Source: Eledone cirrhosa
Taxonomy: Eukaryota
NCBI GenBank assembly: GCA_964016885.1
Contig: CAXHJY010000277.1
Location: forward strand, 60,450-124,449
DNA: 64,000 nt
Direction: 5' to 3'
The notes under the pieces: model-generated
The model's database searches: none
Told to the model about the DNA's origin: nothing
The model's input: only the letters and a program-made list of their open reading frames with translations
Shown here: one piece after another, positions 35,206-42,792 of the stretch
Layout: the number at the start of each line of letters is the position of its first letter
Position numbering within the stretch: position 1 is the first letter of the stretch
Program-made: the position numbers and the translations under genes

Positions 35206-36027
35206 TATTTCTTTATTTACCATAAAGGCATAAAAAGAAGGGACAAATACAAAGGGGGGGAGTTTACATAAAACCGAGTAAAAAGGGTATAAAATAAAAA
35301 TAATCGAAAACAACCTCAAAAGGGAGGGGACGTGATGGGGGTTGCACACACCCCCGAAAAAGTGTGCAATCCTTTGCCCGGGGGAGCACATGGAGAAGGT
35401 GCTCCCCTCTCCTTCACTTCTTTACCTACAGGATGGTATATAGAGAAGGGCCATTTACACGAGCCATTCTCGCCACTATCACCCACCTTTCATAAAACTG
35501 CCTGTGGCCAAGCACCTCTCTCTCCATTCTTATCCTTCTTCCGAAGTGATATCGGAAGAAGTAGACCAGACTATGGCCAGAGAGGAAGTTGCCTGACCTC
35601 AGACCTTTCAATCGTGTCCACCAAACAACCTCTTTCAACATGGCTATTACGCACAGAAAAACAGCCTTTGCTTCCTTTGTGAAGAGGGGAGGCGGCTTGA
35701 TTGTCACCACGGACTCGGCGGTCAATCGAATCGGCGCCACCCGCGACAGCAGTCGTTCGACGTAGCCCCACAGATCAGCCACGCCCGGACATTGCACCAA
35801 TGCGTGCGCAACGGTTTCTTCGTGACGCACGCATCTAGGGCAAATCTTTTTCGAGGGATCCCTGCCCGGGCGCCCGTGTCTGTAGAGCCTCTCTCGAACG
35901 GGTAGAGCCCCCCGGTAGCACTGCCAGGCTAGTGGCTTCTGGAAGTTGTCCATTGGTCCCGGGCCGAAAGTCCTACCGAACAGGCTGGCCAGTTCGTCCT
36001 CTTCCATGTCCAGCGACTCTCCAGGGG
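35206..36027 (-). mobile_element. Tx1/L1-clade LINE 3' fragment A
   Basis: Open frame with CPRC...HALVQC knuckle; AATAAA; (GATA/GACA)n flanks. Confidence 0.9.
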
Positions 36028-36086
36028 TGACTAACAGATAGATAGACAGGCGGACAGACTGGCACTGACTGACTGACAGATAGATA

Positions 36087-36572
36087 GACAAGTACAAAGG
36101 GGGGAGTTTACATGCAAAGGCGTCCTCAATAAGGAGGAGGCAATAACAAGATATAAAAGTATAAAAATAAAATAAAATATAACAAAATAAATGTTATAAC
36201 AATACCCTCAATAGGGAGGAGGCGCCTTGGGGGGTCGCACACACCCCCGAAAAAAAGTGTGCAACCCTTCTCCTCAGGAGCACAGAGAGGGGGTGCTCCC
36301 TTGATCTTTCATCTTCCTCACCTATAGTCTGATGTAGAGTGAAGGCCCATTCACACGGGCCATTCTCGCCACTTTCACCCATCTTTCATAAAAACGACTG
36401 GGGTGGAGCACCTCTCTCTCCATCCTGATCCTTCTTCCGAAATGATATCGGAAGAAACGGACCAGTTGTTGGCCAGAGAGAAAGGTGTCTGACCTCAGTC
36501 CTTTCAGACGCGTCCACCATACAACCTCTTTCGCCATGGCTATTACGCACAGAAACACCGCCTCTTCTTCAT
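36087..36572 (-). mobile_element. Tx1/L1-clade LINE 3' fragment B, same subfamily as the long copy
   Basis: Near identical to ~15082-15560; lacks the terminal ~35 bp. Confidence 0.9.
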
Positions 36573-36670
36573 TGAGTGACAGATAGATAGATAGAAAGAC
36601 AGGCAGATTGATATTGGCTGACAGACAGACACACTGACACAGTAGGACAGACAGACAGACACACAGACAC

Positions 36671-36725
<55 letters not shown>

Positions 36726-37689
36726 TCTTTATTTTACACAGAGGCGTACAAAAATGGGACATTAAAAGACGGCTGGGGTTTTACATAAAAATAACTTTAA
36801 CATTAATAAATAACAATAAACTATATATAATAAAATAACAATTGAAATCCCCAATAGGGGGCAGAGGGAACGTTACTGCAGGGTTGTTTTACACCCCGTG
36901 GATACAACAACCCTCAACACCAGGAACACGTTTTGTAGGTGTTCCTGTCTTCCCTCTGTTTATCTTCCTCAACCTACAGGTTTATATACAGAGAAGGCCC
37001 ATTCACTCGGGCCATTGTCGCCACAGTCACCCACCTTTCAGCGAATTTACTGGGGTGTAGCACCTCTCTCTCCACTCTCACCTTCCTTCTGAAGTGATAC
37101 TTGAAGAAGGGGATAAGTGGTTGTCCGGAGAGAAAAGTGTCTGCCCTCAGTCCTTTTAACCTTGTCCACCATATTACCTCTTTCGCCGTAGCCACCAGAT
37201 AGAGGAAGACCGTCTCTCCTTCGTTCTTAAATGAAGGCGGCGGGGTGATCCTCACGATGGACTCGGCTGACAACTGGATGCGTCCCACACGTGACAGCAG
37301 CTGTTCGACATAATTCCACAGGTCGGTCACCCCTGGGCACTGAACAATTGCGTGCAGAACGGTTTCGATGTCCTGCTCGCATCTTGGACAGGTCCTTTTG
37401 GCAGGATCTCTGCCAGGGCGTCCGTGCCTGTAGATTTGTCTCTAACAAGTAGAGCTCCTCGGTAGCACTGCCAGGCCAGAGACCTCTGGAAGTTATCCAT
37501 AGGCCCTGGACGGAAAGTCCTCGCGAACAGACTGGTCAGTTTGTCCTCCTCGATGCCTAGAGTTTCCCCGAGAACGTCGTCGCATTTATCCTCCACTAAT
37601 CTCCTATAGAATGTCGAAGTGGAGTCTCTACTGATTGCCGTTTCCGCTTGGTAGAGGGCTGTGAGCGCCTGTAGGCATTCGAGGTGCCA
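36726..37689 (-). mobile_element. Tx1/L1-clade LINE 3' fragment C (one frameshift)
   Basis: ORF pieces WHLECLQAL...PGPMDNFQRSLAWQCY and DLWNYVEQLL...GPSLYINL. Confidence 0.9.
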
Positions 37690-37786
37690 TAGATAGATAG
37701 TGAGACAGACACAGGCTGACAGACAGACAGACAGACACAGAGGCTGGCAGATAGAAAGACAGATAAATCGATCGACTGACAGATAA

Positions 37787-38739
37787 ATTTCTTTATTAGC
37801 CACAAGGGCACAAAAGAAGGGGACAAATACAAATGGGGAGTTTACATACAGTTATATGAAAATACAACTATTAATAAAATAACAAATAACAATTGAAATC
37901 CCCAATAGGGGGGGGGAGGCGTTACACAGGGGTTGTACACACCCCGAGAAAATGTACAACCCTCATCTCCAGGAGCACTAAGAGTGAGTACTCCCTTCCT
38001 CTCTTCCTCTTTTTCCTCAACCTACAGGCTTATATAGAGAGAAGGCCCAACCACTCGGACCATCTTTGCCACATTCACCCACCTTTTATAAAATTTGCTG
38101 GGGTACAGCACCTCTCTCTCCATCCTGATTCTTCTTCCAAAATTATATTTGAAAAAACGAATCAATTGCTCGCCGGAGAGAAAGGTGTCTGAACTCAGCC
38201 CTTTTAACCTCGTCCACCATATAACCTCTTTCGCCATAGCCATAACACACAGGAAAACCGCCTCTCCCTCGTTTTTGAAGGAGGGTGGCGGTTTGATCAT
38301 GACAATGGACTCGGTGGTCAACTGAATTAGTCTCACCCGCGACAATAGTCGTTCTACATAGCCCCACAGGTCGGTAACGCCCGGGCAGTGTACAAATGCG
38401 TGCGTGACGGTTTCCTCCTCACGCACGCATCTCGGACAGATCTTTTTCGAAGGGTCCCTACCCGGGCGCCCATGTCTGTAGAGCTCGTCTCGAACTGGTA
38501 GAGCTCCTCGGTAGCACTGCCAGGCCAGGGACTTTTGGAAGTTGTCCATTGGTCCCGGGCGGAAGGTCCTACCGAACAGACTGGCCAGTTCGTCCTCCTC
38601 TACGGCTAGAGTTTCTCCGAACGCGTCGTCGCACTTGCTGCGGACCAACCCTCTATAGAATGACGAAGTGGAGTCTCCACTGATCGCCGGGTCCGTTTGC
38701 CAGAGGACTGTGAGCGCCTGAGCACATTCGATGTGCCAT
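37787..38739 (-). mobile_element. Tx1/L1-clade LINE 3' fragment D
   Basis: Open ~240-aa frame WHIECAQAL...GPSLYISL; AATAAA; GACA/GATA 3' flank. Confidence 0.9.
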
Positions 38740-39109
38740 TTCAAAAGTTAAGTGAGATAAAGAGATGTGTGGTCATGATGTTACGTATATATATTATATA
38801 TTCGATATGTCTCATATGAAAGAATACAGCCAATTTTCCACGCAATACTTTTAGTTAGCACCCCGAACGCATAATTGGGAATATAATCACTTATTTCCTA
38901 ATCTTTGTTGAGTGAGTTGGAATTTGGCCGGAGTATAGCTAAAAAGCTTTCTCCGATATTGTATTTATTTATATATATATATGTATATATATATTAATAA
39001 GAGGAATTCCAACTTTGTCTGATTTACTCGTTTTATTTACAATCCTCTAAAATTTATAATGGTATTATAATGAGATAGTATGATAGAATATTAAATGTTA
39101 AGTGTTAAT

Positions 39110-39148
39110 TGAACAAGTACTTTCATCCTTTCGCAATCTTCAGGTTCA
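39110..39148 (-). ncRNA. Minimal type I hammerhead, left-arm copy
   Basis: Minus strand: tgaac CTGAAGA ttgc gaaa ggat GAAA gtac TT gttca. Confidence 0.7.
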
Positions 39149-39199
39149 TAATGTGTGGTGACAGTTAAGTATTGCAAACTTGACTGTCACCACACATTA

Positions 39200-39238
39200 T
39201 GAACCTGAAGATTGCAAAAGCTTGAAAGTACTTGTTCA
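39200..39238 (+). ncRNA. Minimal type I hammerhead, right-arm copy
   Basis: tgaac CTGAAGA ttgc aaaa gctt GAAA gtac TT gttca. Confidence 0.7.
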
Positions 39239-39385
39239 ATTAACACTTAACATTTAATATTCTATCATACTATCTCATTCTAATACCATTATAAATTTTA
39301 AAGGATTGTAAATAAAACGAGTAAATCAGACAAAGTTGGAATTCCTCTTATTAATATAATCTTCTATACACAATCATACACACCC

Positions 39386-42193: not shown

Positions 42194-42230
<37 letters not shown>

Positions 42231-42391
42231 CATATCTATATCTCTCTCTATATATATATATGTAGAAGGTGAGTAATATTGTAGAACAATAAAACTATGC
42301 ATATATCAGATAAGTAGCACTCAACAGTTGGTAAAACTGGAGTATATATAATAAAGAAGAAATTAAAAGATGGTTAAAAGAGTTCCATATA

Positions 42392-42457
42392 TTCTATTAT
42401 GCGCATTTCGAAAACAAAATCATCCTGGGACAAACATTGTGTTCTCATCAGATAAAA
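42392..42457 (-). ncRNA. Type I hammerhead, left-arm copy
   Basis: Minus strand: ttttat CTGATGA gaacacaat...attttgttttc GAAA tgcgca TA atagaa. Confidence 0.8.
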
Positions 42458-42572
42458 TAAGGTAACATGATATGAGGCATAATAACACTTGTTTACAGGA
42501 AAGTGCTAAGTCTACATATGTAAACACTTTGCTGTAAACAAGTGTTATTATGCCTCATAACACGTTACCTTA

Positions 42573-42638
42573 TTTTATCTGATGAGAACACAATGTTTGT
42601 CCCAGGATGATTTTGTATTCGAAATGCGCATAATAGAA
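42573..42638 (+). ncRNA. Type I hammerhead, right-arm copy
   Basis: ttttat CTGATGA gaac...attc GAAA tgcgca TA atagaa; palindromic stem III. Confidence 0.8.
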
Positions 42639-42792
42639 TATATGGAACTCTTTTAACCATCTTTTATTTTCTTCTTTATTATATATACTCCAGTTCTACC
42701 AACTGTTGAGTGCTACTTATCTGATATATGCATAGTTTTATTATTCTACAATATTACTCACCTTCTACATATATATAGACAGATATAGATAG

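What the first reader, a model, noticed from the sequence alone, without database searches (positions are those of the whole stretch)
42261..42770. 510-bp palindrome with twin intact hammerheads
Seen: the largest fold-back in the window; each arm has a 6-bp stem I, an intact core, palindromic ATGCGCAT stem III and an AUA site. Arm mismatches argue against an assembly artefact. It has cruciform and long-dsRNA potential.
Basis: partly seen in the sequence, partly recalled or inferred. Interest (0 to 1): 0.7.

Follow-up and report, generated by a model that had tools for sequence, protein, structure and literature searches.

The report
Back-to-back Penelope retroelement ends with hammerheads
This mirror-image stretch is two back-to-back copies of the end of a Penelope-type jumping gene, each with a hammerhead self-cutting-RNA motif, an arrangement already known and found at least 848 times in this genome, so it is ordinary in kind, although its relatives suggest that such mirror images are likely made by copying the element's RNA from two fixed start points.

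Summary
The palindrome and both hammerhead motifs are real. It is not a stand-alone twin-ribozyme device. Each arm is the pseudo-LTR of a Penelope-like retroelement with Hydra-clade motifs, sitting in (TA)n. At least 848 head-to-head hammerhead pairs of this kind lie in the genome, and opposite-strand pairs are in print (Cervera 2014; Arkhipova 2013). One RNA can carry only one hammerhead in sense, and a read-through hairpin is predicted to block it (+113 kcal/mol).

Among 51 unselected family loci, 24 have an inverted partner. Of 22 classifiable pairs, 21 join one short end to one tailed end (18 of 24 before by-eye correction). Two pairs do not overlap at all, and 5' ends pile up at an initiator-like site. 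This favours twin priming on sense RNA over snap-back.

This copy breaks the rule: it has two tails and mirrored flanks, likely from later arm-to-arm copying. Its exact junction recurs at one unrelated locus. No read spans that junction; cleavage and expression are untested. The scan noted this kind of structure, and the end rule, in other genomes before.

The parts
42260..42520 (-). Left arm: pseudo-LTR of a Hydra-type Penelope-like element, read outward, from family position -9/-8 to the tailed end (251)
   Evidence: the same sequence precedes the ORF and closes the element in L031, L034, L036, L037
42525..42770 (+). Right arm: second pseudo-LTR copy, from family position 6 to the tailed end (251)
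42499..42532 (.). Imperfect centre and inversion junction; 42521-42524 match neither arm in register; the same 30-mer occurs at only one other place in the genome (C18:18760371)
42519..42519 (-). Position -8, where the left arm stops: pile-up of 5' ends in the family, initiator-like, likely the RNA start (inferred)
42571..42640 (+). Type I hammerhead motif: stem I 42571-42578 with 42633-42640, core 42579-42585, predicted cut after 42632
   Evidence: activity untested
42390..42459 (-). Type I hammerhead motif of the left arm, core starting at 42451, predicted cut between 42398 and 42397
   Evidence: activity untested
42688..42770 (+). Tail of about 84 nt between the family's two 3' ends (167 and 251), right arm
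42260..42342 (-). Tail on the left arm; absent from the matching arm of the C18 copy; likely added later by copying the right arm
42198..42259 (.). Left (TA)n target with a short G-containing interruption that mirrors the right flank
42771..42830 (.). Right (TA)n target

Best explanation
The palindrome is a head-to-head pair of pseudo-LTR fragments of a Penelope-like retroelement inserted in a TA microsatellite, likely made by twin priming on the element's sense RNA and likely made fully symmetric later by arm-to-arm copying. Shown: each arm is the repeat that precedes and follows an RT + GIY-YIG-type ORF; the family has two fixed 3' ends (167 and 251); inverted insertions nearly always carry one of each; 5' ends pile up at -10..-7. 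Inferred: the element protein nicks both strands of (TA)n, one nick primes at site 251 and the other at site 167, each cDNA stops on its own (often at the RNA's 5' end), and the two cDNA ends are joined. Where the arms overlap, strand displacement or a second RNA is needed. Inferred for this copy: it began as short end + tailed end, like the C18 copy with the same junction, and its left arm then gained the tail and a piece of flank from the right arm. The hammerheads are passengers. Either could cut only in an RNA that starts at the centre, probably with a partner ribozyme or the element's protein; a read-through RNA is predicted to be a 250-bp hairpin with the ribozyme blocked. Odds: Penelope origin 0.97, twin priming 0.6, later symmetrisation 0.6.
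For: Parent: the arm runs into an ORF about 80 nt past position 251 (L031, L036, L037). Broken family ORFs cover 368-800 of 800 aa of an intact sister protein at 60-76% identity in 9 of 9 loci, most with YRDD, DKT, CxCX5C, CxxC and CxH. Abundance: 940 exact 23-mers and 848 head-to-head pairs with a 90-120 nt gap over several families; reversed-pattern controls 0. End rule: 18 of 24 pairs by script, 21 of 22 after 3 by-eye corrections and 2 dropped; 0 of 24 have two tails. The arm reaching further 5' is the short-ended one in 15 of 21 such pairs, the tailed one in 5, equal in 1 (counted by eye); snap-back of a tailed cDNA cannot give the first class. L109 and L133 have non-overlapping inverted parts (up to about 170 versus from 196-198) and L110 overlaps by about 10 nt. 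5' ends: 8 of 53 fall in -10..-7 (p 7e-7). In a second family 8 of 30 copies begin within about 2 nt of the A of TCACT, 31 nt behind a TATAAA box (by eye). In vitro precedent: a Poseidon protein cleaves and extends both strands and starts at two internal sites (PMC11167929). Symmetrisation: arms of one locus share 1.41 derived variants against 0.11 between loci (32 loci); this copy's two flanks match each other better than any of 55 other tail flanks on a joint score, and L026, also two-tailed, has identical 40-nt flanks.
Against: No RNA or read evidence at this locus. Most pairs overlap widely, which plain L1-type twin priming (recalled) does not give, so strand displacement or two RNAs must be assumed. 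In the young sister family 6 of 8 junctions are offset by 461-2423 nt, so run-off at a shared RNA end is not general. This family has no clear TATA box before -8, and ATAT microhomology could feed the pile-up there. Penelope elements keep introns, which Arkhipova 2013 reads as favouring an antisense template. Shared arm variants could come from a diverged source copy or from assembly polishing. The flank score was chosen after seeing the data, and on G/C matches alone 1 of 55 other flanks equals this pair. L056 has two short ends.
Confidence: 0.68

Rival explanations
1. Same element, but the inversion is made by self-priming: an antisense transcript folds back and primes on itself (Arkhipova 2013), or the first cDNA snaps back on itself.
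For: Published proposal, based on palindromes at junctions and on intron retention (PMC3846280). Junctions here are often near-symmetric with short loops, the centre holds a palindromic CATATG, and L030 and L069 look like self-copied ends. Antisense self-priming could give the commoner polarity (15 of 21).
Against: Each version predicts one polarity, and both occur (15 versus 5). Neither gives the non-overlapping parts of L109 and L133. An antisense RNA has no reason to end at the sense initiator. Six of 8 long sister copies have junction offsets of 461-2423 nt.
Confidence: 0.17
2. The whole palindrome, junction included, was moved as one unit (a small non-autonomous fold-back element), and this two-tailed copy is the donor or an original product in which both primings used site 251.
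For: The junction 30-mer, with its off-register bases, occurs at exactly 2 places whose flanks share only unrelated repeats within 10 kb. All four arms share variant 76G.
Against: Only 2 copies carry this junction. The C18 copy lacks 117G in one arm and 26T in the other, whereas both arms here have both, which fits homogenisation here after the split. Ectopic conversion between two existing palindromes would also move a junction. 0 of 24 unselected pairs are two-tailed.
Confidence: 0.1
3. The extra symmetry (second tail, mirrored flank, shared variants) is an assembly or polishing artefact on top of an ordinary short-end/tailed-end insertion.
For: Unplaced contig. No laid record spans the junction. 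A 9.7-kb palindrome with 0 mismatches and mirrored flanks exists in the assembly (L051), which looks like a fold-back artefact.
Against: The two tails differ at 2 of about 83 positions, each arm with its own derived base, about the same rate as the rest of the arms; the mirrored flanks also differ at several positions. The junction recurs at another locus. The runs laid are short contigs and RAD reads, perhaps of other individuals.
Confidence: 0.05
4. A selected twin-ribozyme or hairpin-RNA device in which the two hammerheads work together.
For: Both cores are intact, helix III is palindromic, and two copies of the minimal motif can pair through helix III in a co-fold.
Against: Opposite strands; the fold is blocked in read-through RNA; the motif is identical in kind to hundreds of dispersed copies; arm changes are scattered as in other copies.
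Confidence: 0.02

Closest known systems
Hydra-clade Penelope-like elements (Craig et al. 2021, PMC8557442; read: abstract and introduction, passages, section 11, supplement part 2)
   Same: [quoted passage not shown] Penelope-13_HM is listed with a 5'-truncated inverted copy and a hammerhead on each strand.
   Different: RWK reads RWI or RWT; unit 3.9 kb against 'generally <3 kb'; tail about 84 nt against 30-40 bp; 8-bp stem I and long stem II; thousands of candidates (9007) and a young sister family with about 40 identical-length open frames among 150 rows (counted by eye).
Minimal hammerheads of metazoan PLEs (Cervera and de la Pena 2014, PMC4209133; passages)
   Same: Type I motif with short palindromic helix III, thought to work as a dimer, low activity in vitro; dual motifs about 100-700 bp apart on opposite strands are reported in Schistosoma.
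   Different: Here the opposite-strand pairs are mapped to inverted pLTR fragments with defined ends.
Inverted pLTR insertions of Adineta vaga Penelope (Arkhipova et al. 2013, PMC3846280; passages and Discussion)
   Same: Head-to-head arrangement, palindrome at the junction, tail optional on one inverted pLTR, TATA box and TCACT initiator in the pLTR.
   Different: That paper proposes antisense self-priming; the counts here favour two primings on sense RNA. This copy has no ORF and two tails.
Poseidon PAc in vitro (Frangieh et al. 2024, PMC11167929; parts 1-2 of 4)
   Same: Two internal RT start sites that bracket the tail, both strands cut and extended, AT-rich targets, hammerhead not needed for insertion and active only with the protein.
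   Different: Different clade; sites here lie upstream of the ORF and 84 nt apart; in the parts read the paper does not explain inverted insertions.
L1 twin priming (recalled; seen only in search listings)
   Same: An inverted 5' part primed from the second target strand; non-overlapping parts with small deletions, as in L109 and L133.
   Different: In L1 the second priming site is opportunistic and the parts do not overlap; here it is a fixed site and most arms overlap.

Membership tests
Type I hammerhead of PLE pseudo-LTRs | Core CUGAUGA, GAAA and NUH site in type I order | tested here: met
   both arms
Type I hammerhead of PLE pseudo-LTRs | Helix I and II with G10.1-C11.1, supported by covariation | tested here: met
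   96.7% of cells paired, 5 of 7 helix II pairs change on both sides; my alignment and structure
Type I hammerhead of PLE pseudo-LTRs | Short palindromic helix III | tested here: met
   ATGCGCAT in both arms; columns 70/73 are G-C in 5 and A-U in 5 of 10 rows
Type I hammerhead of PLE pseudo-LTRs | Self-cleavage at the NUH site | not testable with these tools
   no assay; the isolated motif's hammerhead fold is 7 kcal/mol above its free ensemble
Rfam hammerhead families | Score at or above the gathering cut-off | tested here: not met
   no hammerhead match; only sub-threshold hairpin (miRNA) matches
EN+ Penelope-like elements | Repeat precedes and follows one RT + GIY-YIG ORF; tandems form pLTRs | tested here: met
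   L034, L036, L037; sister tandems of 3896 bp. The window copy itself has no ORF (tblastn empty)
EN+ Penelope-like elements | Inverted 5'-truncated copy and optional tail | tested here: met
   24 of 51 loci with an adjacent inverted partner; two 3' ends
Hydra clade | DKT motif; CxCX5C linker; CxxC and CxH; C-terminal endonuclease | tested here: met
   of 9 broken family ORFs, DKT in 6, CxCX5C in 5, CxxC in 7, CxH in 8; all intact in the sister protein
Hydra clade | No CCHH (no two cysteines between GIY and YIG) | tested here: met
   sister protein and 11 homologs
Hydra clade | RWK motif | tested here: inconclusive
   RWI or RWT here; RWK in 8 of 11 aligned homologs
Hydra clade | (TA)n insertion and canonical hammerhead | tested here: met
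Hydra clade | Generally shorter than 3 kb (a tendency in the source, not a diagnostic motif) | tested here: not met
   unit 3.9 kb
Hydra clade | Groups with reference Hydra RTs in a tree | not tested
   no named reference proteins were available to the tools; the 21 homologs found are unnamed
Non-LTR retrozymes | Tandem direct monomers, each with a type I hammerhead | tested here: not met
   two inverted copies only; definition from 10.64898/2026.07.22.740005, part 1
MITE or fold-back DNA transposon | Copies share both ends and the centre as a unit (recalled) | tested here: not met
   junctions and arm lengths vary among copies; this junction occurs at 2 places

The most novel reading that the evidence does not exclude
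Penelope-type head-to-head insertions are made by programmed twin priming: one nick primes at the short site and the other at the tailed site of the sense RNA, short palindromes are two strong-stop-like cDNAs that end at the pLTR initiator, and the palindromes then convert arm to arm and occasionally pass their junction to another locus. A young intact sister family in this genome would allow a direct test.
Probability: 0.5. Interest if true: 0.55.

Novelty: new member of a known kind. Interest (0 to 1): 0.3.

Why it matters
The object itself is ordinary. Its value is as a read-out of an open question, how Penelope-like elements make their inverted ends (called undefined in PMC8557442). The counts here set the published antisense self-priming idea against twin priming and predict a transcription start, both testable with an intact sister protein. 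Hundreds to thousands of such short palindromes would also be a dispersed source of hairpin RNA and cruciforms if transcribed or extruded, which is untested.

Tried and rejected
Rfam, whole window at gathering and local at E 10: no hammerhead family. The repeat finder was swamped by microsatellites. Pfam and PDB sequence searches of the sister protein: nothing significant. Sequencing runs: no RNA holder listed; laid contigs and RAD reads show the family at high depth but no record spanning the junction, which neither supports nor refutes this locus (6 of 10 listed runs laid). Allelic or segmental duplication with C18: rejected, only the palindrome and unrelated repeats are shared within 10 kb each side. 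Naiad origin: rejected, endonuclease is C-terminal and the hammerhead is canonical. Common run-off at one RNA end as a general rule: rejected for long copies. The ungapped arm comparison printed (177 differences) was out of register and is discarded; one search gives the differences. Scan look-up by sequence found nothing. Literature: no paper held penelope + head-to-head + hammerhead; none of the 4 Penelope-focused papers listed uses 'twin priming', and the 3 papers with both terms are not about Penelope by title (listing only); one search listed no paper on conversion in Penelope palindromes. Subscription papers, including the original Penelope reviews, are not searched, and supplementary figure S7 of PMC8557442 was not seen.

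Full report
Observation. The two arms align over 42260-42770 with six substitutions and an imperfect centre at 42499-42532; the symmetry continues into the (TA)n flanks. A dust-filtered self-BLAST ranks it first among local fold-backs. Rfam has no match. Across 10 related motifs that I chose, 96.7% of cells pair and 6 of 18 pairs change on both sides.

What it is. The genome is 3.0 Gb. The right arm had 2256 candidates, 40 of them scored, at 94-100% identity. In several copies the arm continues into an ORF about 80 nt past its end and recurs after the ORF, which makes it a pseudo-LTR. An ORF search gave 9007 candidates, 150 scored, and showed a sister family (arm about 79% identical) with an uninterrupted 800-aa protein, 3896-bp tandems and head-to-head pairs. 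The nine family ORFs tested are broken, 60-76% identical to that protein, and mostly keep YRDD, DKT, CxCX5C, CxxC and CxH. These are the Hydra-clade marks listed by Craig et al. 2021, except that RWK reads RWI or RWT and the unit is 3.9 kb. No tree with named references was built, so the clade call rests on motifs.

How common. An exact 23-mer of the hammerhead occurs 940 times. Head-to-head pairs of an exact 16-mer with a 90-120 nt gap occur at 848 places over several families; both controls gave 0. Opposite-strand hammerhead pairs, inverted pLTRs and a tail on one end are all in print.

The hammerheads do not act as a pair in cis. They are on opposite strands. A read-through RNA folds into a hairpin of -386.5 kcal/mol, and forcing the hammerhead costs 113 kcal/mol, against 7-10 for an isolated arm or motif. 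Two RNAs that start at the centre could pair through helix III, as could any two family copies. Such motifs cleave poorly in vitro, and in Poseidon cleavage needs the protein and is dispensable for insertion. Activity here is untested.

How the inversion likely arises. I took the first 51 loci of the list (40 fetched already held), so not selected for inversion. The family has two 3' ends, near 167 and 251. Twenty-four loci have an adjacent inverted partner. The script classed 18 of 24 as one short end plus one tailed end (p 0.011). Three more (L086, L089, L127) fit by eye once internal indels are allowed, two (L122, L135) were dropped as unclassifiable, and L056 has two short ends: 21 of 22 (p 5e-6). 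None has two tails. The arm reaching further 5' is the short-ended one in 15, the tailed one in 5, equal in 1. Snap-back of a tailed cDNA cannot give the first class and antisense self-priming would not give the second. In L109 and L133 the inverted parts do not overlap, which needs two priming events.

Where the cDNAs stop. Eight of 53 mapped 5' ends lie at -10..-7, and the left arm here stops there. In a second family 8 of 30 copies start within about 2 nt of the A of TCACT, 31 nt behind TATAAA, while 19 run further upstream (by eye). Arkhipova 2013 noted a TATA box and TCACT in pLTRs. I read this as run-off at the RNA start, which is an inference. This family lacks a clear TATA box, and microhomology at ATAT could contribute. 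In long sister copies 6 of 8 junctions are offset by 461-2423 nt, so the two cDNAs usually stop independently. Overlapping arms need strand displacement or two RNAs. Intron retention in Penelope elements is an argument for the antisense model that these data do not address.

What is special about this copy. It has two tails. Among 44 loci selected for a full tail or a junction near the arm start, only this one, L026 and perhaps L057 do. L026 has identical 40-nt flanks and a shared variant at 242. This copy's flanks resemble each other more than any of 55 other tail flanks on a joint score chosen after the fact. Arms of one locus share 1.41 derived variants against 0.11 between loci (32 loci; 1 of 38 had no pair and 5 of another subfamily were left out). 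The junction 30-mer occurs at one other place, C18:18760371, with unrelated flanks and the usual short end + tailed end. All four arms share 76G; 26T and 117G sit in one arm each at C18 but in both arms here. The simplest history is a common short/tailed ancestor, transfer of the unit or of its centre between loci, then arm-to-arm copying here. Polishing artefacts could mimic part of this; the tails differing at 2 of about 83 positions argue against that.

Reads. No RNA holder was listed. Contigs and RAD reads of 6 runs show the family but no record across the junction, which decides nothing.

Verdict. Real, correctly described, and a new member of a known kind. The scan's earlier notes report the same kind of structure, and the short-end/long-end rule, in other genomes; I had reached both before that look-up and do not count them as support. 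Interest 0.3, resting on the mechanistic counts rather than on this locus.

Noticed in passing
window 42886-42955 (+) and 51919-51985 (+): Two more type I hammerhead motifs of other families with the same stem I; the first has a weakened stem I.
   Followed up: partly
window 38990-39358: A 370-bp TA-flanked palindrome (96%) with an outward CTGAAGA hammerhead-like core on each arm; likely the same kind of product from another family.
   Followed up: partly
window 51171-51623: A 453-bp TA-flanked palindrome (88%) with one CTGACGA core, a 6-bp stem and GAAA but no evident type I stem I; relatives in L013, L022 and L090. It may belong with the rearranged hammerheads noted elsewhere in this genome; not tested.
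   Followed up: no
L046-L053 (e.g. L046 2937-5402): Young sister family with an uninterrupted 800-aa RT + endonuclease frame in about 40 of 150 listed rows, in tandems and head-to-head pairs; it has a roughly 70-aa Asn-rich insert before the CxCX5C linker that 11 homologs lack.
   Followed up: partly
L051 1-9700 (G000:C1:362768000-362777700): A 9.7-kb palindrome with 0 mismatches, two short ends and mirrored flanks: a very recent fold-back or an assembly artefact.
   Followed up: no
L019, L101, L067, L070: Arms share 4-7 variants that are rare or absent elsewhere in the sample; L019 has 0 differences over 141 positions.
   Followed up: partly
G000:C1:157160537-157161365: One minus-strand match followed by eight plus-strand matches of the second family's 28-mer at 92-bp spacing: a short tandem grown at an inversion junction.
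   Followed up: no
window 15313-17481 (-); 35429-38747 (-): A 723-aa open frame that looks like a non-LTR reverse transcriptase by eye, and further fragments of similar aspect; not searched.
   Followed up: no
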